Assembly: GCA_001824255.1 (NCBI GenBank)
Contig: MHWQ01000002.1
Location: forward strand, 139,548 to 203,547
Reading direction: 5' to 3'
Source of the DNA: Candidatus Zambryskibacteria bacterium RIFCSPLOWO2_02_FULL_51_21
GTDB taxonomy: Bacteria > Patescibacteriota > Minisyncoccia > Phycocordibacterales > Zambryskibacteraceae
Length of the DNA stretch: 64,000 nucleotides
This document shows positions 30,542 through 52,634 of this stretch, one piece after another. Both the position numbers and the translations under genes were made by a program. Under the pieces are notes generated by a model. The model saw nothing but the letters and a program-made list of their open reading frames with translations. It had not been told where the DNA came from and searched no databases. Within the stretch, counting starts at the first letter, position 1; each line of letters starts with the position of its first letter.

Positions 30542-31570
30542 ATGTCCCAGAATCAAGCATTGGCACTAGAACCCCAGCCGGCGCATGTCCTCATCGGACA
30601 AAGCGCGCATGCCCAGCGCCTACGCACCTTCGCTTCTCAGGCGGCGCGCGTCCGGCACTCGGTGCTGCTGCTTGGAGAAACGGGAAGCGGCAAGGACCTC
30701 GTGGCGAAAATGATTCACAGTCAGAAAACTCGCTCGGGACAATTCGTCCTAGTGAACTGCGCGGCAATTCCCGAAGCCTTGTTTGAGTCGGAACTTTTCG
30801 GACACGGCAAGGGAGCTTTCACCGGCGCGCAGGAAAGCAAGCCCGGACTCTTCGAGACGGCAGAGCATGGCACGATTTTCCTCAACGAAATCGGCGAGCT
30901 CCCGTCAGCGATGCAAGCGAAGCTTCTGGAAGCGCTCGAGAACGGCAACTATCGTCGGGTGGGCGAGGTTACGGGCAAGACAATCAAAACCCGCATCATC
31001 GCCGCCACCAATGTCAACATCAAGAAAGCCCTGTCGGAGGGCAAGATGCGTTCCGACCTCTATCATCGCATCAATGTTCTCCCGATGACGGTACCGCCAC
31101 TGCGGGAACGCCGCGAGGACATACCCGACCTGGCCAACTACTTTTTGCGCCAGGAGGATGACGCGAAAACGATAGCGCCGGAAACCATGGCCGTGTTCAG
31201 GAAATACGAGTGGCCTGGCAACGTGCGGGAACTCAAGAATACAGTCATCAGAGCCGTCTTCAATTCGAACGGCGAGCCGAGCATCGGACCGGAACATGTC
31301 AGGCCGCATCTCAAAGAAGAACCTCCACAGGGAAACGAGAACTGGGTTCAAAGACTGGTTCCCAATTCCCAAGAGAAATTCCCGACCTTTGGGGCGGTCA
31401 CCCAGGCCGCGGAAAGGGAGTACCTCAAGGAGGTTCTCACTCGAACCGGCGGCAATGTCAAAAAGGCCGCTCAACTGGCCGGAACCTGTTACCGGAAGCT
31501 CCTTCTCGAAGTGCAGAAGCACAATCTGAGAGACTTGGTGAGGGAGCTGAGGAACCCTTATTCCGAGTAA
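30542..31570 (+). CDS. sigma-54-dependent transcriptional activator, AAA+ domain + HTH only (PspF-like, no sensor/receiver domain)
   Basis: Walker A 'GETGSGKDLVAKMIH', 'ESELFGHGKGAFTGA' (GAFTGA loop), Arg finger region. C-terminal HTH 'VKKAAQLAGTCYRKLL'. Confidence 0.8.
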   Translation: MSQNQALALEPQPAHVLIGQSAHAQRLRTFASQAARVRHSVLLLGETGSGKDLVAKMIHSQKTRSGQFVLVNCAAIPEALFESELFGHGKGAFTGAQESKPGLFETAEHGTIFLNEIGELPSAMQAKLLEALENGNYRRVGEVTGKTIKTRIIAATNVNIKKALSEGKMRSDLYHRINVLPMTVPPLRERREDIPDLANYFLRQEDDAKTIAPETMAVFRKYEWPGNVRELKNTVIRAVFNSNGEPSIGPEHVRPHLKEEPPQGNENWVQRLVPNSQEKFPTFGAVTQAAEREYLKEVLTRTGGNVKKAAQLAGTCYRKLLLEVQKHNLRDLVRELRNPYSE

Positions 31571-31658: not shown

Positions 31659-32432
31659 ATGGCAGAGAAATTGGTCGGCAAGGAAGGCGGTGAAAAGAGC
31701 GTTATAGACGCTCTTTTCACCGCTGGAGCCCACTTCGGCTTCGTCAAAGCAAGGCGGCACCCTTCGGCCAAACCCTTCATCTTCGGCAAGAAGAATAATG
31801 TCGAAATTTTTGACCTTGAGAAGACAAGCCGGGAACTCACGAAAGCTTTAGCCTTCGTCGAGTCCAAAGGCAAAGAAGGGGCAGTGGGCATCATCGTCGG
31901 CGGGAAATCCGAGGCCCGGGAAGCGGTCGAGAGAACCGGCAAGGAACTCAATATGCCCTTTGTTGCCGGCAGATGGATTGGCGGCACCATTACGAACTTC
32001 TCCGAAATCAAGAGACGTATTGCCCGGCTTGAGGAGCTCATGGGACAGCGCGAGAGGGGCGAACTCGCCAAGTACACCAAGAAAGAACGCCTGCTCATCG
32101 ACCGCGAGATTGACCGGCTCAATCTCTACTTCTCCGGCCTTTCGACTCTCAAATCTCTGCCAAAATTTTTAATTATCATCGACCCCAAGAAAGAGCACAA
32201 CGCCCTTGCCGAGGCCAAGAAATCGGGAATTCCCGTAGCGGCGCTCGCCGGTTCGGACACCAATCTGCACGAGATAGAATATGCCATCCCGGGCAACGAC
32301 GCTTCGAGACAAACCATTTCTTTTGTACTCGATGAGATGGTAAAATCTTACAGAAAGGGCCTCGCGGAAAAAGCAGCCAAGGAACAAAAAGAACAAAATG
32401 TCGATAACAACGGAACAAATCAAGCAGCTTAG
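31659..32432 (+). CDS. rpsB: 30S ribosomal protein S2
   Basis: 'LFTAGAHFGFVKARRHP', 'PFVAGRWIGGTITNF', 'PVAALAGSDTN'. Confidence 0.9.
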   Translation: MAEKLVGKEGGEKSVIDALFTAGAHFGFVKARRHPSAKPFIFGKKNNVEIFDLEKTSRELTKALAFVESKGKEGAVGIIVGGKSEAREAVERTGKELNMPFVAGRWIGGTITNFSEIKRRIARLEELMGQRERGELAKYTKKERLLIDREIDRLNLYFSGLSTLKSLPKFLIIIDPKKEHNALAEAKKSGIPVAALAGSDTNLHEIEYAIPGNDASRQTISFVLDEMVKSYRKGLAEKAAKEQKEQNVDNNGTNQAA

Positions 32433-32853
32433 AGAGGAAACAGGCCTCTCCATAGCTCAGTGCCGCTTCGCGCTCGAAGAGGCGGACGGAGATAAGGATA
32501 AGGCTATTGCCATCCTCCAGAAGAACGCCACAGGCATCGCCGCCAAGAAGGGCGGCAGAGCACTCGGTGCCGGCTCTGTGGCGGCCTACATTCACACAGG
32601 AGACACCGTAGGAGTCCTTCTCGAGCTTCTCTGTGAGACTGACTTCGTGGCCAAGAACCCGGAGTTCAAGGCCGTAGCCAGGGAAATCGCCATGCATGTG
32701 GCCGCCATGAATCCCTCTACGAACGAGGAACTCCTGGAGCAACCCTTCATCAAAGACCCCTCGAAAACTATCGCCGACCTGGTGAATGGCACGGTGCAGA
32801 AGTTCGGGGAGCGCACCGAGGTCGGCCGCTTCACCAGATTTGCCGTAAAATAA
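32398..32853 (+). CDS. tsf: elongation factor Ts (short 151-aa form)
   Basis: 'ITTEQIKQLREETGLSIAQCRFALEEADGDKDKAIAIL' UBA-like N-term. Immediately after rpsB. Confidence 0.85.
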   Translation: MSITTEQIKQLREETGLSIAQCRFALEEADGDKDKAIAILQKNATGIAAKKGGRALGAGSVAAYIHTGDTVGVLLELLCETDFVAKNPEFKAVAREIAMHVAAMNPSTNEELLEQPFIKDPSKTIADLVNGTVQKFGERTEVGRFTRFAVK

Positions 32854-33316: not shown

Positions 33317-33321
33317 TTTTG

Positions 33322-33394
33322 AGCCGCCTCCCGGACTCGGACCGGGGACCTTCGCTTTACAAAAGCGTTGCTCTACCAACTGAGCTAAGGCGGC
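33322..33394 (-). tRNA. tRNA-Thr (anticodon TGT), no encoded CCA
   Basis: Reverse complement folds as GCCGCCT-TA-GCTCAGTTGGTAGAGC-A-ACGCT-tTTGTAa-AGCGa-AGGTC-CCCGGTCCGAGTCCGGG-AGGCGGC-T. Confidence 0.8.
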
Positions 33395-33414: not shown

Positions 33415-34086
33415 CTATCTCGCGGGTGTTGTAGTCGCAGTCTGGAGCTTCTTCAATGCCGGGACGTTCTTCTCAAGCTCTTCGACAGTCTTGAAGCCGT
33501 AATAGGGAACACCGTTGATGATAAGAGCCGGGAGCCGGTCTTTCACTTTGTTTATGGATATAAGAGTCTTGATGGCGCCGAGGTCGTAGTCATAGTCGAA
33601 AGAGTAGACGCGCAGGTCAGGATACTTGTCTCGGAGAGCGGTGAGGACATAGCCCATCTTCTCGCAATCCTCGCAGCGGTCATCTTCGGAAGAGTAGAAG
33701 TAGAGGATGAAGGTGGACTTCACATTGCACTTTAGGGCGAGCTGCTTCATCAGGAGATAATCCTTGATTTCAAGCAGGAAGTAAGAGCGCTTGAGAGAGT
33801 CGACATCCGCGTCGTTGAAACCCTTCTGGTCCTCGGCGTAGGAGAGACGCTCGCCCAGAGGTCCAAGCTCCTTCGAGAGGAAACCGGGGCCGATGTCGCG
33901 GCAGGAAGTTTCTGCCAATAGCGAGAACTGGGTCTCAGAGGAGAGGATGTCGAGAGCCACCCGGTTCTCGATGTCGCGGACGTCTTCGAGCTTCTTGCCG
34001 GTGAGGATGTTGCTGGCGAAAATAGCGGTGCCAAATATCGCCGCGGTAATAATAAACGCCACCAAGTATTTCTTCGAATCAATCAT
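33415..34086 (-). CDS. thioredoxin-fold protein with CxxC (DsbA/glutaredoxin-like), membrane-anchored
   Basis: N-terminal TM. 'SSEDDRCEDCEKMGYVL' CxxC in a thioredoxin-like context. Confidence 0.5.
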   Translation of the reverse strand: MIDSKKYLVAFIITAAIFGTAIFASNILTGKKLEDVRDIENRVALDILSSETQFSLLAETSCRDIGPGFLSKELGPLGERLSYAEDQKGFNDADVDSLKRSYFLLEIKDYLLMKQLALKCNVKSTFILYFYSSEDDRCEDCEKMGYVLTALRDKYPDLRVYSFDYDYDLGAIKTLISINKVKDRLPALIINGVPYYGFKTVEELEKNVPALKKLQTATTTPAR

Positions 34087-34089
34087 TAT

Positions 34090-35379
34090 TTAGCGCCAGC
34101 TTACCTTTCTCTTGAATGCCGTGTCAAATAGGGCCTTGATGAGCCAGAGGGGAACCAGAAAGGTGTAGAGGAAGAGGTAGTAGAAGATGCCTCTGTGGAG
34201 CTTGAACTTGCCGTCGGCAAGCTTGAGCGAGAGATAAAGTATGAAAAGGGTTAGGCCCACGGCGGTGATGACGATGATGGGCAGAATGCCGGTGTTGAGG
34301 AAGTACCAGTCGAAGGAAGGCCAGTGAAGCTTGCCGGCAAAACCCACGGCCCGGAAGCGGGTTGCGAGATTCAAACCTTTTTCGACGAAGCCTGTCAGCA
34401 CATTGCCTACCATGATGAGGGAAGTGAAGAGGGAAAGCGTGGCGATAGGCATGATAAACATTCCGAAGTGTCCATATTGTCTGTTGAAGAAAAGGGTTTT
34501 GTAATCGATGGCATTGTTGAGGAAGCCGTATGACCAGCGGGCTCTCTGCTTCACCAGACCCTTGAGAGTTGCCGGAGCGACGGTATAGACGTGCGCGCCG
34601 TGAGAGTTGACGATTTTGTAATGATTCTTTTGCATCCTCATGGCCATCTCCATGTCCTCGGTCATATGGGCGTGTTTGTAAGGACCAAGGTCTCTGAACA
34701 CTTGCGCGCGGAAGATGGAGAAAGGACCCGGAGTAACATAGAGCGCGCCGAGAGAGGAGAGCATGCGGCGCAGGAATATAGACCAACTGTATTCCGTCTT
34801 CTGGATATGCTGGAGAATATTTTTAGGTTCATGAACTTTGATAGAAGGGGTGACGGCCATGACTTTCGGGTCATCGAAGTAGGGAATAATTTTCTTCAAC
34901 GCGAGTGGAGTGACAAAGGAGTCCGCGTCGAGGCAGCCAACAAGTTCCGTCTCAACCTTTTCGAGAGCGAGATTCACAGCTGTGTGCTTGCCGCCGTTCT
35001 TCTTGTCGATAACACTTATTCGGGAGTTCGTTTTGAAACTATTCAGCACTTTGAGCGTGCTGTCGGTCGAACCGTCGTTCACAAGGATGAGCGAGAGTTT
35101 GTCTTCCGGATAGTCCAAAGCAAGAATAGACTCTATAGTCGCGGCGACAGTCGCTTCTTCGTTGAAACAGGGGACGATGACCGTGGTAGTTGGGAAGTTG
35201 GCGATACCCTTAAGGCTGCGCTCATCCTCAAGCTTAATCTCGCCCCTGACCTCAAGGTAGGTAATAAGCAGAAACACCTCGAAGAAGAGGGATATGAAGA
35301 GGGAACAGTATAAAATGATGGCCTGAACGTCTGCCATTGCGATAAAGTTCACTATACCATAGCATATAGACGATGTCAC
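34090..35379 (-). CDS. family 2 glycosyltransferase, processive membrane synthase type (PNAG/cellulose/chitin-synthase-like)
   Basis: 'VIVPCFNEEATV...LILVNDGSTD' DxD region, 'QRARWSYG' (QxxRW-like). Multiple C-terminal TM helices. Confidence 0.8.
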   Translation of the reverse strand: MTSSICYGIVNFIAMADVQAIILYCSLFISLFFEVFLLITYLEVRGEIKLEDERSLKGIANFPTTTVIVPCFNEEATVAATIESILALDYPEDKLSLILVNDGSTDSTLKVLNSFKTNSRISVIDKKNGGKHTAVNLALEKVETELVGCLDADSFVTPLALKKIIPYFDDPKVMAVTPSIKVHEPKNILQHIQKTEYSWSIFLRRMLSSLGALYVTPGPFSIFRAQVFRDLGPYKHAHMTEDMEMAMRMQKNHYKIVNSHGAHVYTVAPATLKGLVKQRARWSYGFLNNAIDYKTLFFNRQYGHFGMFIMPIATLSLFTSLIMVGNVLTGFVEKGLNLATRFRAVGFAGKLHWPSFDWYFLNTGILPIIVITAVGLTLFILYLSLKLADGKFKLHRGIFYYLFLYTFLVPLWLIKALFDTAFKRKVSWR

Positions 35380-36521
35380 AAAACATAGTCATACAGAGCG
35401 AGGACGAGCAGCGGCTCAAAGCGGAGCTCGAGAAGCGACACGACGCAGAGGCGGAGCGCATGAAGCGACTTTTGAATACGCCGGATCTGTCGCGCACTCC
35501 CGGCAGCCCGATTTATGAAATAGTCCGGAAAGTTATTGAGATTCCTGATTTCAATGGCTTCGACATAATACAAGTGCCTGAGATAGTACCGGCGGACATT
35601 AGCTTCGACCTCTTCGATTTCCCGGCTGACCATCCTGCCAGATCAAGGTCGGATACGTATTACGCTGATGACAAGAACATCCTGCGCACCCACACGACCG
35701 TGATGTGGTACTACTACTTGCAAAATGAGGATGTAAAAAAACGCATGGCAAACGGCGAGCCTGTGGGCTGCTTCTGCTTTGGCAAGGTTTACAGGAAAGA
35801 TGAGATCGATAGGAAACACATGAATATCTTCCACCAGATAGACGGCTGGTACTTGGCGCCGAAAGATAAAAGGCTCCTAGGCGCGGAAGATTTGGAGAAT
35901 GCTTTAAGAGCCATCGCTCGAGAGGTATTCGGTCCTGAAGCTAATATCAAAATTTTTGAAGATACATTCCCTTATACCGACCCATCACGACAAATGGAAA
36001 TTGAGAAAGATGGCTCATGGCTAGAAGTATTGGGAAGTGGGGTGGTGAAAGGCAGTGTTTTGGAGAAATTCGGTGTCGACTCGAGCAAATGGAATGGTTG
36101 GGCCTTCGGCCCCGGTATTGAACGTCTGGCCATGGCAGCATTAGATGTGCCTGACATGAGGCTTTTCTGGTCCAAAGATCCGAGAGTAGTAAGCCAGCTT
36201 AAACTGGGTAATAAGTATAAAGAGGTTTCCAAATATCCTCCCGTTGTTCGCGACATCTCATTTGTTGTTACGCAAAATTTCATCGCCAATGATTATTTTG
36301 AAATGGTCCGTGAAGTCGGCGGAGCAATGATTGAACATGTCGAGCTTTTGGATAAATACGAGAACACCGAGAAATTTGGTGCTGGGAAGTTGAGCTACAC
36401 CTATCGCATCACTTATCGCCACTTAGAACGCACTCTGACGAATGAGGAAGTAAACAAGGTCCACGCCGATCTGGAGGCCCGTACGGAGGCTGATTTCGGA
36501 GCATCAATTCGCCGAGATTAG
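35373..36521 (+). CDS. pheS: phenylalanine--tRNA ligase, single-chain type: PheS catalytic core fused to a C-terminal FDX-ACB-like anticodon-binding domain
   Basis: Class II motifs 'PADHPARSRSDTYY', 'GCFCFGKVYRKDEIDRKHMNIFHQIDGW', 'GPGIERLAMA'. Then a ~95-aa tail 'SKYPPVVRDISFVV...KLSYTYRITYRHLERTLTNEEVNKV'. No pheT adjacent. Confidence 0.75.
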   Translation: MSQNIVIQSEDEQRLKAELEKRHDAEAERMKRLLNTPDLSRTPGSPIYEIVRKVIEIPDFNGFDIIQVPEIVPADISFDLFDFPADHPARSRSDTYYADDKNILRTHTTVMWYYYLQNEDVKKRMANGEPVGCFCFGKVYRKDEIDRKHMNIFHQIDGWYLAPKDKRLLGAEDLENALRAIAREVFGPEANIKIFEDTFPYTDPSRQMEIEKDGSWLEVLGSGVVKGSVLEKFGVDSSKWNGWAFGPGIERLAMAALDVPDMRLFWSKDPRVVSQLKLGNKYKEVSKYPPVVRDISFVVTQNFIANDYFEMVREVGGAMIEHVELLDKYENTEKFGAGKLSYTYRITYRHLERTLTNEEVNKVHADLEARTEADFGASIRRD

Positions 36522-36578: not shown

Positions 36579-38534
36579 ATGGCAGAAAAGAAGGCTAATT
36601 ACAGCGCTGAATCTATCACTGTTTTGGAGGGTCTTGAACCTGTCAGGAAGAGACCTGGCATGTACATCGGCACGACTGGACCGGACGGTCTCCACCACCT
36701 GGTTACCGAGATTTTCGACAACTCCAGGGACGAGGCCATGGGCGGCTTCGCCAATGATATTGAGGTGGCGCTTCTGCCCGGCAACCGCGTGCGAGTGGTA
36801 GACAATGGCCGAGGCATCCCGGTTGATATTCATAAACAGACGAAAGTTTCCGCGCTCGAAACAATCATGACCACTCTCCATGCCGGAGGCAAATTCGGCG
36901 GCGAAGGATACAAGGTTTCCGGCGGTCTCCATGGTGTCGGCGCTTCGGTAGTAAACGCCCTTTCTGTTTATTGCCGAGCGGAGGTGCACAAAGACGGAGG
37001 CATTTATATGCAGGAGTACAGCAAGGGTAAGAGGAAAGCCGCGGTAAAGAAAATTGGACCGTCGAAGCAGACCGGCACCATCATCACTTTCCAGCCGGAC
37101 CCGGAAATATTCCCCAACACTGACTTCGACTTCGACCAGATAGTCACTCACATGCGCCAGCAAGCGTATTTGGTGAAGGGCTTGCGCATCAGTATTCTTG
37201 ATGCGCGAGAAGCCAACAAAATTGATGATTCCGGAATCTTTTACATCCGCGAGCTGGGCCTCAACACTCCGTCCATGTCGTTTTATTTCGAGGGGGGGCT
37301 GGTCTCGCTTGTGCGTTTCGAGAATGAGCACCTGAAGCCGATGCATAGGAATATTTTCTACGTCGAGAAGATGGCTAACGGCAACGACTACGAGACAGTC
37401 GAGGTGGCGCTCCAGTACGTCGAAGATATTTCTTCGCGCCTTCTGCCTTTTGCAAACAATATCTACACTGCCGAGGGTGGCACACATGTCACCGGCTTCA
37501 AGACGGCCTTGACGCGAACCATCAACTCCTACGCCAGGAAAAACAACCTCGTAAGCGAGAAGGAAGACAACTTCACCGGCGACGACGTCTTCGAAGGACT
37601 CACGGCGGTGCTTTCGGTCAAGCTGCGGGAAATCCAGTTCGAAGGCCAGACCAAGGGCAAGCTCGGCTCTGTCGAGGCCCAAGCCATGGTCACGACCGTC
37701 TTCGGCGAGGCCTTCGGCCAGTTCCTCGAGGAGAATCCGGACGACGCCAAGGCCATTATCCAGAAGGTGGTGCTGGCTCTTAAAGCCCGTAAAGCGGCCA
37801 AGGCGGCCAAGGACTCGGTCCTGCGCAAAGGCGCCTTGGAGGGCATGACGCTCCCGGGCAAGCTTGCCGACTGCCAGAGTCGCTCGGCCGAGGAGTCGGA
37901 GCTATTCATTGTCGAGGGAGATTCCGCCGGCGGCACGGCCAAGATGGGCAGGGACAGGCGCATCCAGGCGATTCTTCCTCTGCGGGGAAAAATTTTGAAT
38001 ATAGAACGAGCTCGTCTCGACCGTATGCTCGCCAGCGAACAAATCAAGAACCTGGTCGTCGCTCTCGGCACGGCGATAGGGGACACATTCGATATTTCGA
38101 AGCTCCGTTATCACAAGATTATTATCGCGACCGATGCCGACGTGGACGGCGCGCATATTCGCACCCTTCTCCTTACTCTGCTTTACCGCTTCTTCCGCCC
38201 GCTTATCGACGCAGGGCATGTTTACATCGCTCAGCCGCCGCTTTATAAAATCAAGAAGGGCAAGGAAGTCCACTACGTGTACTCCGAAGCGGAGAAGAAC
38301 AGAATCACTGACGAGAACACCGGCGATATCCAGCGCTACAAAGGTCTCGGAGAAATGAATTCCGACGAACTCTGGGAAACCACCATGGACCCGGCCAAAA
38401 GGATTTTGAAACTCGTCAAGGTTGAGGACGCCCGCGAAGCCGACCGCATCTTCGACATCCTCATGGGTAGCGACGTCCCGTCCCGAAAATCTTTCATACA
38501 ATCGAATGCCAAAAAAGCCGTTTTGGATATCTAA
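36579..38534 (+). CDS. gyrB: DNA gyrase subunit B (type IIA topoisomerase ATPase subunit)
   Basis: 'LEGLEPVRKRPGMYIGTTG', GHKL ATPase, Toprim 'EGDSAGG', 'PLRGKILN'. 651 aa. Confidence 0.85.
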   Translation: MAEKKANYSAESITVLEGLEPVRKRPGMYIGTTGPDGLHHLVTEIFDNSRDEAMGGFANDIEVALLPGNRVRVVDNGRGIPVDIHKQTKVSALETIMTTLHAGGKFGGEGYKVSGGLHGVGASVVNALSVYCRAEVHKDGGIYMQEYSKGKRKAAVKKIGPSKQTGTIITFQPDPEIFPNTDFDFDQIVTHMRQQAYLVKGLRISILDAREANKIDDSGIFYIRELGLNTPSMSFYFEGGLVSLVRFENEHLKPMHRNIFYVEKMANGNDYETVEVALQYVEDISSRLLPFANNIYTAEGGTHVTGFKTALTRTINSYARKNNLVSEKEDNFTGDDVFEGLTAVLSVKLREIQFEGQTKGKLGSVEAQAMVTTVFGEAFGQFLEENPDDAKAIIQKVVLALKARKAAKAAKDSVLRKGALEGMTLPGKLADCQSRSAEESELFIVEGDSAGGTAKMGRDRRIQAILPLRGKILNIERARLDRMLASEQIKNLVVALGTAIGDTFDISKLRYHKIIIATDADVDGAHIRTLLLTLLYRFFRPLIDAGHVYIAQPPLYKIKKGKEVHYVYSEAEKNRITDENTGDIQRYKGLGEMNSDELWETTMDPAKRILKLVKVEDAREADRIFDILMGSDVPSRKSFIQSNAKKAVLDI

Positions 38535-48865: not shown

Positions 48866-49855
48866 TTAATCCCTCCTGCTCACACCGCGCTCTTTCTTAA
48901 GGAGTTTGATATCGTCGTAAAGGGTGGCCTGATTCCCGCCTCTCTTCTTCGAGTGATATAAGGCCACATCGACGTGATGGAGGAGGTCTCCGGGCCTTTT
49001 CCCGTCGCGGGGATAAGCGGCTACGCCTATGCTCACGGATGTTTTTATTCTCTTTTTGCCCACCCTCAAGACCGGCTTGAAAATTTTTATTATTTTCTTG
49101 GCGAAGTGCTCTATATCCTGCATCTTCTTGAAGCTTCTGAGCAGGATGACGAACTCGTCTCCTCCGAGTCTTGCCACCACGTCAGATAATCTGACATTCT
49201 TCGTCAGCCGGGCGGATATCTCGATCAATATCAGATCCCCGACACGATGCCCCTCCTCGTCGTTGATAAGCTTGAAGTTGTTGAAATCCAGGAAAAAAAT
49301 GGCGAGAAGGTAATTCTTCTTCTCGTCGTGAATGGAGTTGACCAGATACTCTTCGAAAAAGGCCCTGTTCGGCAATCCCGTCAGATAATCGTGGGTGGAG
49401 AGATGGAGAACGGTTTTTTGCAGATGTTTCTGGTCCGTGATATCACGCATTATTTTAGAGTAGCCGTGGTGCGCGTTGGTTTTGTCCAGAGTGGAGGTCA
49501 GGACGCCGGTGCTCCAGAAACGGGTGCCATTCTTCCTCCGGTATTCTCTCTCGTCAAGGTGCCGACCTTTCTTGAGGGCGCGCCCCAAGTCCGCTTTCGG
49601 CAATCCGTCCTTGCCGTCTTTAGATACGAATAACGCGGAGAAATTTCTCCCGATGATTTCACTCCGGCGATAGCCGAATAGCTTCCTGGCGCCCTGGTCC
49701 CAGCTGGTGATACGCCCCCTCTTGTCTAGCATGAAAATGGCGTAATCCTTGATGTTTTCGACCAGGGAACGGTAGCTCTGCTCTATGGCGTGGTCCACCC
49801 GGCGGCGGTTATGAGAGACCTTCATATACATATGACTATACACCCTTCTTGACAC
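48866..49855 (-). CDS. PAS-domain sensor diguanylate cyclase (PAS + GGDEF)
   Basis: PAS 'ITSWDQGARKLFGYRRSEIIGRNFSALF'. 'RLGGDEFVIL' GGDEF. Confidence 0.85.
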   Translation of the reverse strand: MSRRVYSHMYMKVSHNRRRVDHAIEQSYRSLVENIKDYAIFMLDKRGRITSWDQGARKLFGYRRSEIIGRNFSALFVSKDGKDGLPKADLGRALKKGRHLDEREYRRKNGTRFWSTGVLTSTLDKTNAHHGYSKIMRDITDQKHLQKTVLHLSTHDYLTGLPNRAFFEEYLVNSIHDEKKNYLLAIFFLDFNNFKLINDEEGHRVGDLILIEISARLTKNVRLSDVVARLGGDEFVILLRSFKKMQDIEHFAKKIIKIFKPVLRVGKKRIKTSVSIGVAAYPRDGKRPGDLLHHVDVALYHSKKRGGNQATLYDDIKLLKKERGVSRRD

Positions 49856-50201: not shown

Positions 50202-52499
50202 TCACGCTGTTGCTTCGACTGGCACGAAGTCCGTCTCGCACACGCCGCCCGCGCAAGCAAGCTCCTTGGCGCCGTTTGTCATATCTTCCTGCTCATAGGC
50301 CACGAGTTTCGAGAAATCGAGGTGTCCGAGCTCCTTCAAGCGCCTTTCGTACTCCTCTTTCGTTATCTCTTCGTACGGCGCGAGCTGATAGACGTGATTG
50401 TTCCTGGGAAGGAAGGAGAGACCGCCGACGATATCCCAGTTTTTGTAAACGAAGTTTGCCACCGATATCCATTCGTCATCGCCGATATAAATGGTGACCG
50501 AAGGATTGTGTTCGGTGAAATGAACCTTGAGCCTCTTCCACTCCTCAAGCATCTCAAGCGCCGTTACGTCCTTGTTGACGAGCGCGCCCTCGGGAGCCTT
50601 GCAGGGGAATTCCATGACCATGGTCGCCGCGTTCGAGGTCGAATAGCCGACTTCGGGGAAGACCGGCACGCCCTGGTTCCTGGCAAGCTTCAATAGAGGG
50701 TCATTGGCGGAGATGCGCACCCGGCGGATGTAGTAGTGCGAGTACCAAGTGTGCATGCCGGAGCCCACGCCCAAGAGCTGGCCGGAGTTGCCATGGGGCT
50801 TCACGCAAGTGATGGCAGTCGATTCGTTCTTGCCGAAGCGCTTGGCGTATTTCTTGTTCGTCTTCATCGATTCTTCGCGTAAAATTTGCAAATTCTTGTC
50901 GTTCCTCACGAGCTTGTTGTCGTAATAGCCGGTGATGGAGACGCCGAGCAATTGTTCCTTCTCGCAATTCTTCTTCCACTCTTTCGAGAGATAGCCGAAG
51001 TCGGTAAGCGTCGCCTGGTAAGTGCCTAGAAGCGTTGCCAGGCGCATCTTCCTCTTCAAATTTTCCATATCATCTCCCGGCCGCACCACAATCGAGGTGA
51101 GATTGCAGAATTGCTTCGACTGGAGGTAAATCTCGCCGCAAGGATTGACTCCCGGCTGCTTGGCTTTCTTCAAAACATCCCAGCGCCTCTTGGGCACCTG
51201 GGCCGACAAGCTCCCGCGGTTAAATATTCCTCGCTCGCCGGAATGCGAAGTGACGAGTGCCGTCCACTCCTGCATGAATTCTTCGGCCGTCGGCTTGGCC
51301 TCGTAGACCGCGGAATTGTTTGCCATCGAGCGCTGGCCCTCCGTCTGCCAGAAGGCGCCCTTCTTGGCATCGCGGACTTCGGTATCATCGAGAGAGGAGA
51401 GTGAGATGAGGGCCGAGCGGCGCACGCCTCCGGCAACGACAATAAGCCCTATCTGGCAAATGATGTCGTGCAGGTCGAGAGTAGAGAGGCGGCGGCCCTG
51501 CTTGGCAAGCATCTTCCTCCTGGTAAATTGCATAAGCTCCTGAAGAGGGGCCGGGCCAGAAGCGCGGCCGCCCATGGTGGCAAGTTTGGCTCCAGCGGGG
51601 CGGATGAGGGAGTAGTCGAGCTCAACGTCCTTGCCCTTCTCCCAGGCGGTGCAGGCCGCCACATACGCGTTGCACCAGCCCTCCTTGCTGTCCTCAATAG
51701 TAATCTTCGGCGCCATCTGGCCCGTCTGCTTCTGAATCTGGGGGAACTTGCCCACGTTCTCAGGCTCGACGGAGAAACCGCATCCGGCTCCGCACATCGA
51801 GACATACATTATTTCGGAGAGGTCGCGCCAAGAAGTGGGCGCGATGTAAGCGCAATTATAAGCGGTGACATTTGAAGCGTCGGCCGCTTTGCCCGCCGAC
51901 CACAGGAGGCGCATGGAAGGGCAAATGTCCTGGACTAATATTGCCTCACGCACTTCCGAGTATTCGCTTGAGGTCAGGGCGTCTCCCATTTTTCCCTTCA
52001 TGTATTCCATGAAGCGGTCTATCGCCTCAATCCAAGTCTCGCGTCGGCCCAGCTCCGGCCTCCATTTCGAATAGAACTGGTAGAAAATAAATTCCTGATA
52101 CGGAGTTTTGAAGTACTTGCTACTATCGGCAATCTTGTCCTTGACCTCTTGGGGGATAAGAGCGGTATGCTCCCTCGCCTTGGTGCGCTCGGCGCGGTAG
52201 AGAATATAGGCCTTGGCCGTCGCCGTAAGCTTCTGGAGCATGAGCTCCATCTCCACTAGGTCCTGGATGCCCTCAACCGTAGGGACAAACTTCTTGTCGA
52301 ATGAGCGGCGCAAAGAAAGTTTTCTCACCACCGATTCGGTAATCTTCTCCGCCACTCCGGGACGATATTCCTTGGCTTCCTGCAGAGCCTTAGTAACAGC
52401 GTGAGTGATTTTATCCGGATTGAAAGGGACTGTCGAACCGTCGCGTTTAATGATATTCGAGAGTCGAGAAGGGCGAGTGGCTGGAGCTTTTTTGGGCAT
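50202..52499 (-). CDS. nrdJ: class II (adenosylcobalamin-type) ribonucleotide reductase with N-terminal ATP-cone
   Basis: ATP cone 'IIKRDGSTVPFNPDKITHAVTKAL'. Active-site 'VNPCGEIYLQSKQFCNLTS'. No glycyl-radical tail. Start set at MPKKAP. Confidence 0.75.
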   Translation of the reverse strand: MPKKAPATRPSRLSNIIKRDGSTVPFNPDKITHAVTKALQEAKEYRPGVAEKITESVVRKLSLRRSFDKKFVPTVEGIQDLVEMELMLQKLTATAKAYILYRAERTKAREHTALIPQEVKDKIADSSKYFKTPYQEFIFYQFYSKWRPELGRRETWIEAIDRFMEYMKGKMGDALTSSEYSEVREAILVQDICPSMRLLWSAGKAADASNVTAYNCAYIAPTSWRDLSEIMYVSMCGAGCGFSVEPENVGKFPQIQKQTGQMAPKITIEDSKEGWCNAYVAACTAWEKGKDVELDYSLIRPAGAKLATMGGRASGPAPLQELMQFTRRKMLAKQGRRLSTLDLHDIICQIGLIVVAGGVRRSALISLSSLDDTEVRDAKKGAFWQTEGQRSMANNSAVYEAKPTAEEFMQEWTALVTSHSGERGIFNRGSLSAQVPKRRWDVLKKAKQPGVNPCGEIYLQSKQFCNLTSIVVRPGDDMENLKRKMRLATLLGTYQATLTDFGYLSKEWKKNCEKEQLLGVSITGYYDNKLVRNDKNLQILREESMKTNKKYAKRFGKNESTAITCVKPHGNSGQLLGVGSGMHTWYSHYYIRRVRISANDPLLKLARNQGVPVFPEVGYSTSNAATMVMEFPCKAPEGALVNKDVTALEMLEEWKRLKVHFTEHNPSVTIYIGDDEWISVANFVYKNWDIVGGLSFLPRNNHVYQLAPYEEITKEEYERRLKELGHLDFSKLVAYEQEDMTNGAKELACAGGVCETDFVPVEATA

Positions 52500-52634
52500 T
52501 TTTGGCAGGTTAGTAAACGTTAATAAACCTAAATTTTTAATGTCATTACATTTTAATACAATCGCAATCAAAAAAACTGGGGATATGTATTGACAAAGGG
52601 GCAGGCTTGTATGCGCCTGCCCCTTGGATGAATT

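What the first reader, a model, noticed from the sequence alone, without database searches (positions are those of the whole stretch)
35373..36521. Single-chain (mitochondrial-type) PheRS: PheS catalytic core fused to an FDX-ACB-like anticodon-binding domain, with no pheT nearby
Bacterial PheRS is normally an alpha2beta2 enzyme encoded by adjacent pheS and pheT. Here the class II core (HPAR block, FRxE/FHQ.EG block, GxGxERL block) is followed by a ~95-aa C-terminal module (SKYPPVVRDISFVV ... KLSYTYRITYRHLERTLTNEEVNKV). That module matches the ferredoxin-fold anticodon-binding domain normally found at the C-terminus of PheT and of monomeric mitochondrial PheRS. The next gene is gyrB, not pheT. 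If no pheT exists elsewhere in the genome, this organism uses a monomeric PheRS. That would raise questions about editing (no B3/B4 domain) and tRNA-Phe recognition.
Basis: partly seen in the sequence, partly recalled or inferred. Interest (0 to 1): 0.55.

Follow-up and report, generated by a model that had tools for sequence, protein, structure and literature searches.

The report
Single-chain PheRS replacing bacterial pheS-pheT
This candidate-phyla-radiation bacterium carries a one-gene, mitochondria-style phenylalanyl-tRNA synthetase at the chromosomal spot where close relatives keep the usual two-gene enzyme, so the textbook two-subunit bacterial design appears to have been swapped out, more than once, in this group.

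Summary
ORF 35373-36521 (+, 382 aa) is a PheS class II core (residues 45-275) fused to an FDX-ACB domain (286-380). Its model superposes over the full length on human mitochondrial PheRS. The source is a Ca. Zambryskibacteria (Paceibacteria/CPR) genome. No PheT (B1-B7) or second PheS exists in the window or in 10 kb beyond each end (84 kb in total).

The main new evidence is positional. In Patescibacteria, and in Chloroflexota, pheS-pheT lie downstream of rpsB-tsf-tRNA-Thr and, in Paceibacteria, upstream of gyrB. The window has the single-chain gene in that slot. Of 104 tsf-anchored loci, 22 carry pheS-pheT, 8 carry the single-chain gene, and none carries both. Collinear sister genomes differ only in which type fills the slot.

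In the trees all fused proteins form one clade apart from canonical PheS. The Patescibacteria clade is distinct from the eukaryote/virus/Bacteroidota-SrmL clade.

The gene is most likely the organism's only PheRS and lacks an editing domain. Genome-wide absence of pheT is inferred, not shown. I found no published description of a bacterial housekeeping single-chain PheRS. I rate it a new variant of a known kind.

The parts
35373..36521 (+). Single-chain PheRS gene (382 aa)
   Evidence: ORF. Two Pfam domains. AF2 model with pLDDT 91.4. Full-length fold match to human mt-PheRS 3cmq. Identical protein on contigs up to 464 kb and in GCA_001824075.1.
35373..35504 (+). Short N-terminal helical extension (residues 1-44), replacing the long coiled coil of classical PheS
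   Evidence: Helices 10-21 and 25-35 in the model. Conserved in the family (D24, R29, L34 invariant). E. coli PheS aligns only from its residue 59.
35505..36197 (+). Class II catalytic core, tRNA-synt_2d (residues 45-275), with motifs 1-3 and the Phe pocket
   Evidence: Pfam E 9.5e-53. H87/R90, R141, H154/Q155, F199/T202/S205, A244, G246/G248/E250/R251 are invariant in the bacterial single-chain clade. T202 and A244 correspond to E. coli T251 and A294.
36228..36512 (+). FDX-ACB anticodon-binding domain (residues 286-380), homologous to domain B8 of PheT
   Evidence: Pfam E 1.5e-23. Aligns to PheT residues ~500-602 of Patescibacteria and 684-794 of E. coli. Beta-alpha-beta-beta-alpha fold in the model.
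36579..38534 (+). gyrB, the conserved downstream neighbour (57-bp gap, no terminator-like site between)
   Evidence: Pfam. PheRS-gyrB adjacency in L009, L010, L011, L027. No terminator found.
31659..32853 (+). rpsB (31659-32432) and tsf (32398-32853), the upstream anchor of the conserved PheRS slot
   Evidence: Pfam. tsf-anchored loci carry pheS-pheT or the single-chain gene downstream.
33321..33394 (-). tRNA-Thr(UGU), a synteny marker that follows tsf in nearly all Patescibacteria loci; inverted here
   Evidence: ARAGORN. Alignment shows it is the same gene on the opposite strand.
33415..35379 (-). Two opposite-strand genes lying between the anchor and the PheRS gene: a 223-aa protein with no family match and a family-2 glycosyltransferase
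   Evidence: Also present in L009 and L017. Not part of the enzyme; listed as slot content.

Best explanation
The gene encodes the organism's housekeeping phenylalanyl-tRNA synthetase, in a single-chain form. One polypeptide carries the PheS-type class II catalytic core and, on a short linker, the ferredoxin-fold anticodon-binding domain that is otherwise the last domain of PheT.

By analogy with human and yeast mitochondrial PheRS (inference from established structures 3CMQ and 3TUP), it would activate Phe in a pocket closed by T202 and A244. It would swing the FDX-ACB domain from a closed to an open position to read the GAA anticodon together with the acceptor end, and it would charge tRNA-Phe without any post-transfer editing, because the B3/B4 editing domain is absent.

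In this lineage it has displaced the ancestral two-gene (alpha-beta)2 enzyme in situ. It sits in the rpsB-tsf-tRNA-Thr ... [PheRS] ... gyrB slot that holds pheS-pheT in sister Paceibacteria.

Shown here: architecture, predicted fold, conserved catalytic residues, positional equivalence, mutual exclusivity at the slot, housekeeping-level conservation, and separate-clade phylogeny. Inferred: enzymatic activity, monomeric state, lack of editing in vivo, and absence of pheT from the rest of the genome.
For: 1. Architecture and fold.

2. Residues: all class II motif residues and the two Phe-pocket determinants are invariant in 17 of 17 members of the bacterial clade.

3. No PheT or second PheS: none in the 64-kb window, none in a further 10 kb each side, and none in about 90 kb of other carrier loci. 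With native Patescibacteria PheT probes the only similarity is the B8 tail.

4. Positional equivalence: tsf followed by pheS-pheT is found in 19 loci that appear to be Patescibacteria and 3 Chloroflexota loci, so it is ancestral. The single-chain gene lies downstream of tsf in 8 loci. None has both.

5. Collinear sister genomes differ only in the slot content: L027 and L051 have S2-Tsf-hyp-...-single-chain-GyrB, and L015 has S2-Tsf-hyp-...-PheS-PheT-GyrB. Their GyrB proteins are 77-79% identical, and the clade has bootstrap 100 on S2+Tsf.

6. A complete 866-gene list of a Paceibacteria genome with pheS/pheT (Ca. Yanofskyibacterium PMX_810_sub) contains no single-chain gene: PF01409, PF03147 and PF03483 occur once each.

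7. Constraint: the gene is as conserved as S2, EF-Ts and RF1 between the same genomes (55-56% against 44-56% in L017 and L027).

8. Abundance: more than 6,700 homologues, and the top 120 all have the same two domains at 65-76% identity.

9. Literature: human mt-PheRS charges bacterial tRNA-Phe transcripts (PMC9976931), and monomer-type PheRS has displaced alpha-beta PheRS in diatom plastids (PMC4494062). A single chain can therefore do the job.
Against: - Only about 84 kb of a genome of unknown size was examined, so a relocated pheS-pheT cannot be excluded.
- Bacteroidota SrmL proteins have the same architecture and the same catalytic residues, yet NCBI's curators name them 'mystery ligase', which implies to me a protein additional to canonical PheRS. 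I did not test that. Architecture and residues therefore do not prove housekeeping function.
- The protein scores below the curated cut-offs of all three NCBIfam PheRS-type models.
- Trees are neighbour-joining on 216-219 columns with 40-100 bootstraps, not maximum likelihood.
- 19 tsf loci with at least 5 kb of downstream sequence carry neither PheRS type there, so the synteny is common but not universal.
- The more distant carriers L010 and L011 have no tsf nearby.
- There is no biochemical or expression evidence.
Confidence: 0.8

Rival explanations
1. It is an accessory paralogue of unknown function, comparable to the Bacteroidota 'PheS-related mystery ligase' SrmL. On this reading it coexists with a normal pheS-pheT located elsewhere in the genome.
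For: The best NCBIfam hit is the SrmL model (244.5 bits). SrmL has the same two domains and the same catalytic residues and occurs in cultured Bacteroidota with 6-7 Mb genomes. The Oligoflexia homologue sits among unrelated metabolic genes. The rest of this genome was not seen.
Against: The score is below the SrmL cut-off of 300 for all 42 family members tested. The Patescibacteria clade never joins SrmL in the tree (bootstrap 0 for the two together; SrmL joins the eukaryote/virus clade at 98). The gene occupies the pheS-pheT slot and is mutually exclusive with pheS-pheT there (22: 8: 0). It is conserved like core translation genes. A complete alpha-beta Paceibacteria genome lacks it.
Confidence: 0.1
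2. It is a recent local fusion. A deletion running from the 3' end of pheS to the start of PheT domain B8 in this lineage would have created the gene from the resident pheS-pheT pair.
For: pheS and pheT are adjacent or overlapping in the relatives, so one in-frame deletion would give exactly this architecture. The gene lies in the ancestral slot.
Against: The core is only 28-32% identical to canonical Patescibacteria PheS, against 34-39% to eukaryotic mt-PheRS and 44% to the Oligoflexia protein. The canonical-versus-fused split has bootstrap 100, with all Patescibacteria PheS on the canonical side. Fused proteins from bacteria, eukaryotes and viruses share derived states (W243, H154) that are rare or absent in canonical PheS. 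An ancient single fusion followed by spread is not excluded. A recent local one is.
Confidence: 0.04
3. It is a eukaryotic (organellar) or viral gene that reached the assembly by contamination, or by very recent transfer from a host.
For: The closest solved structure is human mt-PheRS. Related genes occur on eukaryotic and on huge-phage or giant-virus-like contigs.
Against: The identical gene lies in the same bacterial housekeeping context (rpsB, tsf, gyrB, mraZ, PBP) on at least 23 contigs from independent assemblies, up to 464 kb long. GC content is uniform across the region. The clade is separate from the eukaryote/virus clade at bootstrap 100. The family is conserved across many Paceibacteria lineages.
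Confidence: 0.02

Closest known systems
Mitochondrial/organellar monomeric PheRS (human FARS2, yeast MSF1; NCBIfam TIGR00469; PDB 3CMQ, 3TUP)
   Same: Same two-domain chain: PheS core plus C-terminal FDX-ACB. No B3/B4 editing domain and no long N-terminal coiled coil. Full-length sequence match (E 3e-60) and fold match to the closed form (TM 0.77-0.78). Shared derived residues W243 and H154.
   Different: Encoded in a bacterial chromosome among housekeeping genes, with no targeting peptide. It lacks the insertion that splits the match to the human enzyme into two stretches. It scores 231 against the cut-off of 258. It forms a separate clade at bootstrap 100. It has clade-specific states: T109, E144, Y201, Y342 and R293 in all 14 Patescibacteria members compared, and D157 in 10 of 14.
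PheS-related mystery ligase SrmL (NCBIfam NF051887) of Bacteroidota
   Same: A bacterial protein of about 344 aa with the same PF01409+PF03147 architecture and the same catalytic and pocket residues. It is the top-scoring NCBIfam model for the window protein.
   Different: SrmL occurs in large-genome cultured Bacteroidota, and its name implies it is additional to canonical PheRS (not tested here). It groups with eukaryotic and viral sequences (bootstrap 98), not with the Patescibacteria clade. Core identity to the window is 37-41%. The window family fails the cut-off of 300 and sits in the pheS-pheT slot.
Canonical bacterial (alpha-beta)2 PheRS, pheS + pheT (TIGR00468 / TIGR00472), including the reduced Patescibacteria version
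   Same: Homologous catalytic core (31% to E. coli PheS) and homologous anticodon-binding domain (PheT B8). Same chromosomal slot in Paceibacteria.
   Different: One gene of 1.15 kb instead of two totalling about 2.6 kb in Patescibacteria. It has none of PheT domains B1-B7, so no editing site and no alpha-beta interface partner. It lies on the other side of a bootstrap-100 split.
Displacement of plastid alpha-beta PheRS by monomer-type PheRS in diatoms and cryptophytes (PMC4494062)
   Same: A two-subunit PheRS is replaced by a single-chain one, more than once independently, in reduced genetic systems.
   Different: That case works by retargeting a nuclear-encoded protein into an organelle. Here a gene is exchanged at a fixed locus of a bacterial chromosome.

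Membership tests
Class II aaRS, PheRS-type catalytic core (Pfam PF01409 tRNA-synt_2d) | Match above the Pfam gathering score; class II motifs 1, 2 and 3 with their invariant Arg residues | tested here: met
   179.6 bits against cut-off 19.8. HPAR (R90), R141 and GxGxER (R251) are invariant.
Class II aaRS, PheRS-type catalytic core (Pfam PF01409 tRNA-synt_2d) | Phe-pocket determinants equivalent to E. coli PheS T251 and A294 | tested here: met
   T202 and A244 are invariant in 17 of 17 members of the bacterial clade. The E. coli residues' role is from my own knowledge of the PheS specificity mutants.
FDX-ACB anticodon-binding domain (Pfam PF03147) | Full-length match above the gathering score; ferredoxin-like fold at the C-terminus | tested here: met
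   83.4 bits against 31.1, model positions 1-94 of 94. Strand-helix-strand-strand-helix pattern in the model.
Monomeric organellar-type PheRS (architecture and mode of action) | Single polypeptide of core plus FDX-ACB, with no B3/B4 editing domain | tested here: met
   Only two domains are found. No B3_4, B5 or CLM hit in the protein or in 84 kb around it.
Monomeric organellar-type PheRS (architecture and mode of action) | Overall fold and domain packing as in human mt-PheRS | tested here: met
   Foldseek TM 0.77-0.78 and rmsd 3.3-3.6 A over 388 columns to 3cmq, 5mgh and 8p8x (closed form). TM 0.58 to the open tRNA complex 3tup.
Monomeric organellar-type PheRS (architecture and mode of action) | Monomeric state, and Phe-tRNA-Phe synthesis without editing | not testable with these tools
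   Needs purified protein.
NCBIfam TIGR00469 pheS_mito (equivalog) | Whole-protein score of at least 258.35 | tested here: not met
   231.2 bits. The nearest 50%-cluster representative, P0121, just passes at 264.3.
NCBIfam TIGR00469 pheS_mito (equivalog) | Phylogenetic placement inside the eukaryotic organellar clade | tested here: not met
   Separate bacterial clade at bootstrap 100. The eukaryote+virus+SrmL clade has bootstrap 98.
NCBIfam NF051887 SrmL (equivalog) | Whole-protein score of at least 300 | tested here: not met
   244.5 bits. The best of 42 family members reaches E 1.2e-76, still below the cut-off.
NCBIfam NF051887 SrmL (equivalog) | Coexistence with canonical pheS/pheT in the same genome | tested here: inconclusive
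   None in 84 kb, and mutually exclusive with pheS-pheT at the conserved slot.
Canonical bacterial PheRS alpha subunit (TIGR00468 pheS) | Score of at least 237.45 | tested here: not met
   153.1 bits.
Canonical bacterial PheRS alpha subunit (TIGR00468 pheS) | Partner pheT gene adjacent | tested here: not met
   The next gene is gyrB, and no PheT domains are nearby. The protein lies on the fused side of a bootstrap-100 split.

The most novel reading that the evidence does not exclude
Fused single-chain PheRS may be an old prokaryotic invention rather than a eukaryotic one. On this reading it behaves as a self-contained, transferable module. Within Paceibacteria it has displaced the editing-competent two-gene enzyme at one fixed chromosomal slot several times, with different sublineages of the module landing in sister genomes. 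A large share of CPR bacteria would then translate Phe codons with no PheRS editing. Related branches of the same family were picked up by huge phages, giant viruses, Bacteroidota (SrmL) and the ancestor of mitochondria-bearing cells, so the mitochondrial enzyme would be a recruit from this bacterial or viral pool.
Probability: 0.35. Interest if true: 0.75.

Novelty: new variant of a known kind. Interest (0 to 1): 0.62.

Why it matters
Bacterial PheRS is the textbook heterotetrameric aaRS, an antibiotic target, and a model for editing. pheS and pheT are also used as universal bacterial marker genes (from my own knowledge, both are in GTDB's bac120 set).

If a large part of Paceibacteria runs on a single-chain, editing-less enzyme, four things follow:
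- pheT-based completeness and phylogeny markers are systematically missing for these genomes, and the real PheRS is labelled 'hypothetical protein' by NCBI.
- These cells must either tolerate Tyr or meta-Tyr misacylation or prevent it some other way. That can be tested directly with a 382-aa protein that should be easy to express.
- The locus offers natural isogenic-like pairs (L015 against L051 and L027) for studying in-situ displacement of an essential two-gene enzyme by a one-gene analogue.
- The origin of mitochondrial PheRS, so far treated as an organellar peculiarity, can be addressed with three prokaryotic or viral sister groups.

Tried and rejected
1. A whole-genome search for pheT in this organism is not possible with these tools. 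Genome scans return only loci around a match, and the window's own genome did not appear among the species representatives.

2. Eight literature searches for a bacterial or CPR monomeric PheRS were run. The only CPR statement found is that many CPR PheRS-beta lack domain B2 (PMC5370408). One search was poorly targeted and wasted.

3. Per-genome KO tables in two other Parcubacteria papers had no PheRS entries. The Kuroda table is truncated for the Minisyncoccus bins.

4. rplT as a synteny anchor failed, because there is no L20 gene in the window.

5. The 789-aa ORF at 50202-52571 as a possible PheT was rejected. It is a ribonucleotide reductase.

6. Active-site residues as a discriminator between a 'true PheRS' and an 'SrmL-like paralogue' were rejected, because SrmL keeps them all.

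7. Homology of the window's 153-aa gene after tsf with the small gene after tsf in L015, L027 and L051 is not detectable. Only L039 matches, so it is not used as a synteny marker.

8. Names attached to Patescibacteria PheT hits include no Zambryski-, Taylor-, Vogel- or Liptonbacteria, but about 20 of 120 hits carry a name at all. This is weak evidence only.

9. The promoter and terminator scan around the gene gave nothing above the chance expectation.
Full report
**Observation.** The ORF is real and sits at the stated coordinates: 35373..36521, + strand, ATG start, 382 aa. Pfam places a PheRS-type class II core at residues 45-275 (E 9.5e-53) and a complete FDX-ACB domain at 286-380 (E 1.5e-23). 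The core is 31% identical to E. coli PheS over 282 residues. The tail aligns to residues 684-794 of E. coli PheT, which is domain B8. The downstream gene is gyrB, and the upstream neighbour on the other strand is a family-2 glycosyltransferase. Six-frame searches of the whole window with E. coli and with native Patescibacteria PheS and PheT find only this gene. The only PheT-like signal is its own tail. A 789-aa ORF of PheT size at 50202-52571 is a class II ribonucleotide reductase.

**Source and family.** The identical protein is annotated 'hypothetical protein' in Candidatus Zambryskibacteria RIFCSPLOWO2_02_FULL (GCA_001824075.1). It lies in the same context on at least 23 contigs from independent assemblies, up to 464 kb long. 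More than 6,700 homologues were found. The best 120 all have the same two domains, are 365-417 aa long, and are 65-76% identical. Where named, they come from Parcubacteria/Paceibacteria lineages (Zambryski-, Yanofsky-, Vogel- and Liptonbacteria). An alignment of 42 members has 71% mean column identity.

No curated NCBIfam model claims the family. It scores 244.5 on SrmL (cut-off 300), 231.2 on mitochondrial PheRS (cut-off 258.35) and 153.1 on PheS (cut-off 237.45). That explains the 'hypothetical' label.

**Structure.** An AlphaFold2 model built on the family alignment is confident (pLDDT 91.4, pTM 0.87). Foldseek puts human mitochondrial PheRS first, over the full length (TM 0.77-0.78, 388 columns, closed form 3CMQ and its mutants). 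Bacterial PheS chains match only the core. Sequence search of the PDB agrees: mt-PheRS at E 3e-60, the best bacterial PheS at 1.9e-36, and PheT C-termini at 1e-7.

**Is it the PheRS or an extra ligase?** Direct inspection of the rest of the genome was not possible, so I looked for positional evidence. Published gene tables give the complete 866-gene list of a Paceibacteria genome, Ca. Yanofskyibacterium PMX_810_sub. It has one canonical pheS, one pheT and no fused gene. Its gene order reads rpmE, rpsB, tsf, two small genes, pheS, pheT. The window reads rpmE, prfA, two genes, rpsB, tsf, a small gene, tRNA-Thr, two opposite-strand genes, the single-chain gene, gyrB.

I used EF-Ts as an anchor to collect 24 loci from species-representative genomes and 80 from metagenomes. 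Each was classified by what lies within 10 kb downstream of tsf:

| Content downstream of tsf | Loci |
|---|---|
| Canonical pheS followed by pheT | 22 (3 Chloroflexota; the other 19 have the short PheS typical of Patescibacteria) |
| Single-chain gene, no pheT | 8 (7 distinct organisms) |
| Both | 0 |
| Neither in the fetched stretch | 74 (many on short contigs; 19 have at least 5 kb downstream) |

A tRNA-Thr(UGU) gene follows tsf in almost all Patescibacteria loci of both kinds. The window has the same tRNA gene, inverted. Because the tsf-pheS-pheT linkage is shared with Chloroflexota, the two-gene enzyme is the ancestral occupant of the slot.

**The clearest case.** Three loci form a clade with bootstrap 100 on S2+EF-Ts, and their GyrB proteins are 77-79% identical.

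| Locus | Gene order |
|---|---|
| L027 (Taylorbacteria) | S2, EF-Ts, small gene, single-chain PheRS, GyrB, 156-aa gene |
| L051 | Same frame, with three inserted genes before its single-chain PheRS |
| L015 | Same frame, with PheS and PheT in place of the single-chain gene |

On the S2+EF-Ts tree, monophyly of all carriers has 0% support, and L051 pairs with the alpha-beta genome L015 at 81%. The single-chain proteins of L027 and L051 are only 45% identical. L051's protein groups with an Oligoflexia protein at bootstrap 100. The type of PheRS in this slot has therefore changed more than once, using different sublineages of the fused gene.

In more distant carriers (L010, L011) the tsf linkage is lost, but adjacency to gyrB remains. 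Extending the window's organism by 10 kb on each side adds GluRS and CysRS but no PheS or PheT domain. Between the same genome pairs the gene is as conserved as S2, EF-Ts and RF1.

**Origin.** Neighbour-joining trees of the core (216-219 columns, 40-100 bootstraps) separate canonical PheS from all fused proteins at bootstrap 100. The canonical side includes E. coli, Chloroflexota and all 12 Patescibacteria PheS sequences. Within the fused group, a bacterial clade (Paceibacteria, the Oligoflexia MAG, P0123 and P0129) has bootstrap 100. The window core is 28-32% identical to Patescibacteria PheS, 34-39% to eukaryotic mt-PheRS and 44% to the Oligoflexia protein. A recent local pheS-pheT fusion is therefore rejected. 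An ancient single fusion, which one in-frame deletion across adjacent pheS-pheT would produce, remains the simplest origin for the whole fused family. Shared derived residues (W243, H154) fit that reading.

**Other fused proteins.** The exhaustive representative search finds only 228 clusters at E<=1e-30. Most full-length ones pass the mitochondrial model's cut-off. They come from three kinds of source:
- Eukaryotes: a fern, a choanoflagellate, Vitrella, and a contig with eukaryotic genes.
- 160-340 kb contigs with phage-type genes and a contig that looks like a giant virus. A 635-kb GenBank phage record also matches across both domains.
- Bacteroidota. These are NCBI's 'PheS-related mystery ligase SrmL', in Adhaeribacter, Sphingobacterium, Chryseobacterium and Myroides.

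SrmL keeps every catalytic and pocket residue and groups with the eukaryote/virus clade (bootstrap 98). It is 43-56% identical to a choanoflagellate mt-PheRS core but only 37-41% identical to the window. Residues alone therefore cannot prove a housekeeping role. The window family is neither SrmL nor mitochondrial PheRS in the membership sense.

**Mechanism.** Shown: two-domain chain, predicted closed-form packing, intact class II motifs, and the Phe-pocket residues T202 and A244. Inferred from human and yeast mt-PheRS: Phe activation and transfer by one chain, a hinge movement of FDX-ACB to reach the anticodon, a reduced identity set (anticodon plus acceptor end; PMC9976931), and no editing because B3/B4 is absent. 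The 57-bp gap to gyrB with no terminator-like site suggests co-transcription, but this is weak evidence.

**Novelty.** Ten literature-search slots were available and eight were used. They returned only organellar uses of 'monomeric PheRS' and nothing on CPR bacteria beyond the loss of domain B2 in their PheT. The domain architecture is visible in databases, and NCBI curators have flagged the Bacteroidota relatives as a mystery. What appears undescribed is a large bacterial clade in which the single-chain enzyme is the positional, and most likely functional, replacement of pheS-pheT. I rate it a new variant of a known kind. My confidence that it is this organism's sole PheRS is 0.8.

Noticed in passing
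L036 8001-9047 (340-kb contig); L037 8001-9065 (160-kb contig); L118 7001-8074; GenBank LR745206.1 613872-614768: Short (348-357 aa) single-chain PheRS genes lie on very large contigs dominated by ORFs with no family match, plus phage or giant-virus type genes (PhageMetallopep, PcfJ, SNF2, dCMP deaminase, IF-1; Kelch, PTH2, NAD-ligase). A 635-kb 'uncultured phage' record also matches residues 65-364. Large viruses seem to carry the one-gene PheRS.
   Followed up: partly
proteins P0425, P0438, P0444, P0446; tree: NCBI's 'PheS-related mystery ligase SrmL' of Bacteroidota groups with eukaryotic mitochondrial PheRS and viral sequences (bootstrap 98; 43-56% core identity to a choanoflagellate enzyme). 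It keeps all PheRS catalytic residues. It may be the closest bacterial relative of the mitochondrial enzyme. Its genomic context was not examined.
   Followed up: partly
proteins P0295-P0303 and about 40 others: Many Patescibacteria PheT proteins (739-825 aa) carry an inserted NlpC/P60 peptidase domain (PF00877). NCBI labels them 'PheRS beta subunit-related protein'. A cell-wall hydrolase domain inside an aaRS subunit is odd.
   Followed up: no
L026 10001-15373; L029 1755-8367; L032; Patescibacteria loci L014-L064: The tsf, pheS, pheT gene order is shared by Chloroflexota (Anaerolineae) and Patescibacteria. This is a conserved linkage between two groups that some phylogenies place as relatives.
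   Followed up: partly
window 33321-33394 (-): tRNA-Thr(UGU) follows tsf on the same strand in nearly every Patescibacteria locus examined. In the window the same gene is inverted, which indicates a small local rearrangement next to the PheRS slot.
   Followed up: yes
L014-L064 canonical loci: Canonical Patescibacteria PheS is only 231-277 aa, with no N-terminal coiled-coil domain, and PheT is 600-654 aa. Even the alpha-beta enzyme is strongly reduced in this group. This agrees with the remark in PMC5370408 that domain B2 is often missing.
   Followed up: partly
L008 10001-11245 (Oligoflexia MAG GCA_019694465.1); L051 11386-12609: A 414-aa single-chain PheRS in an Oligoflexia MAG sits among unrelated metabolic genes. 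It is the sister (bootstrap 100) of the gene in Patescibacteria locus L051, which suggests transfer between phyla or a binning error.
   Followed up: partly
window 30542-31570 (+): A 342-aa sigma-54-activator-type AAA+ protein (PF00158) lies between prfA and rpsB. Together with PAS-GGDEF proteins at 48866-49855 and just upstream of the window, this is more regulatory machinery than I would expect in a CPR genome.
   Followed up: no
window 50202-52571 (-): A class II (B12-dependent) ribonucleotide reductase with an N-terminal ATP-cone. The barrel-domain Pfam matches are weak (E about 1e-4), so it is a divergent member.
   Followed up: no
The EF-Ts peptide pattern taken from the window did not retrieve the window's own genome from the species-representative collection. 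The nearest hit was Zambryskibacteria RIFCSPHIGHO2_01_FULL_46_25 at 83% identity. This organism is apparently not a representative genome there.
   Followed up: no
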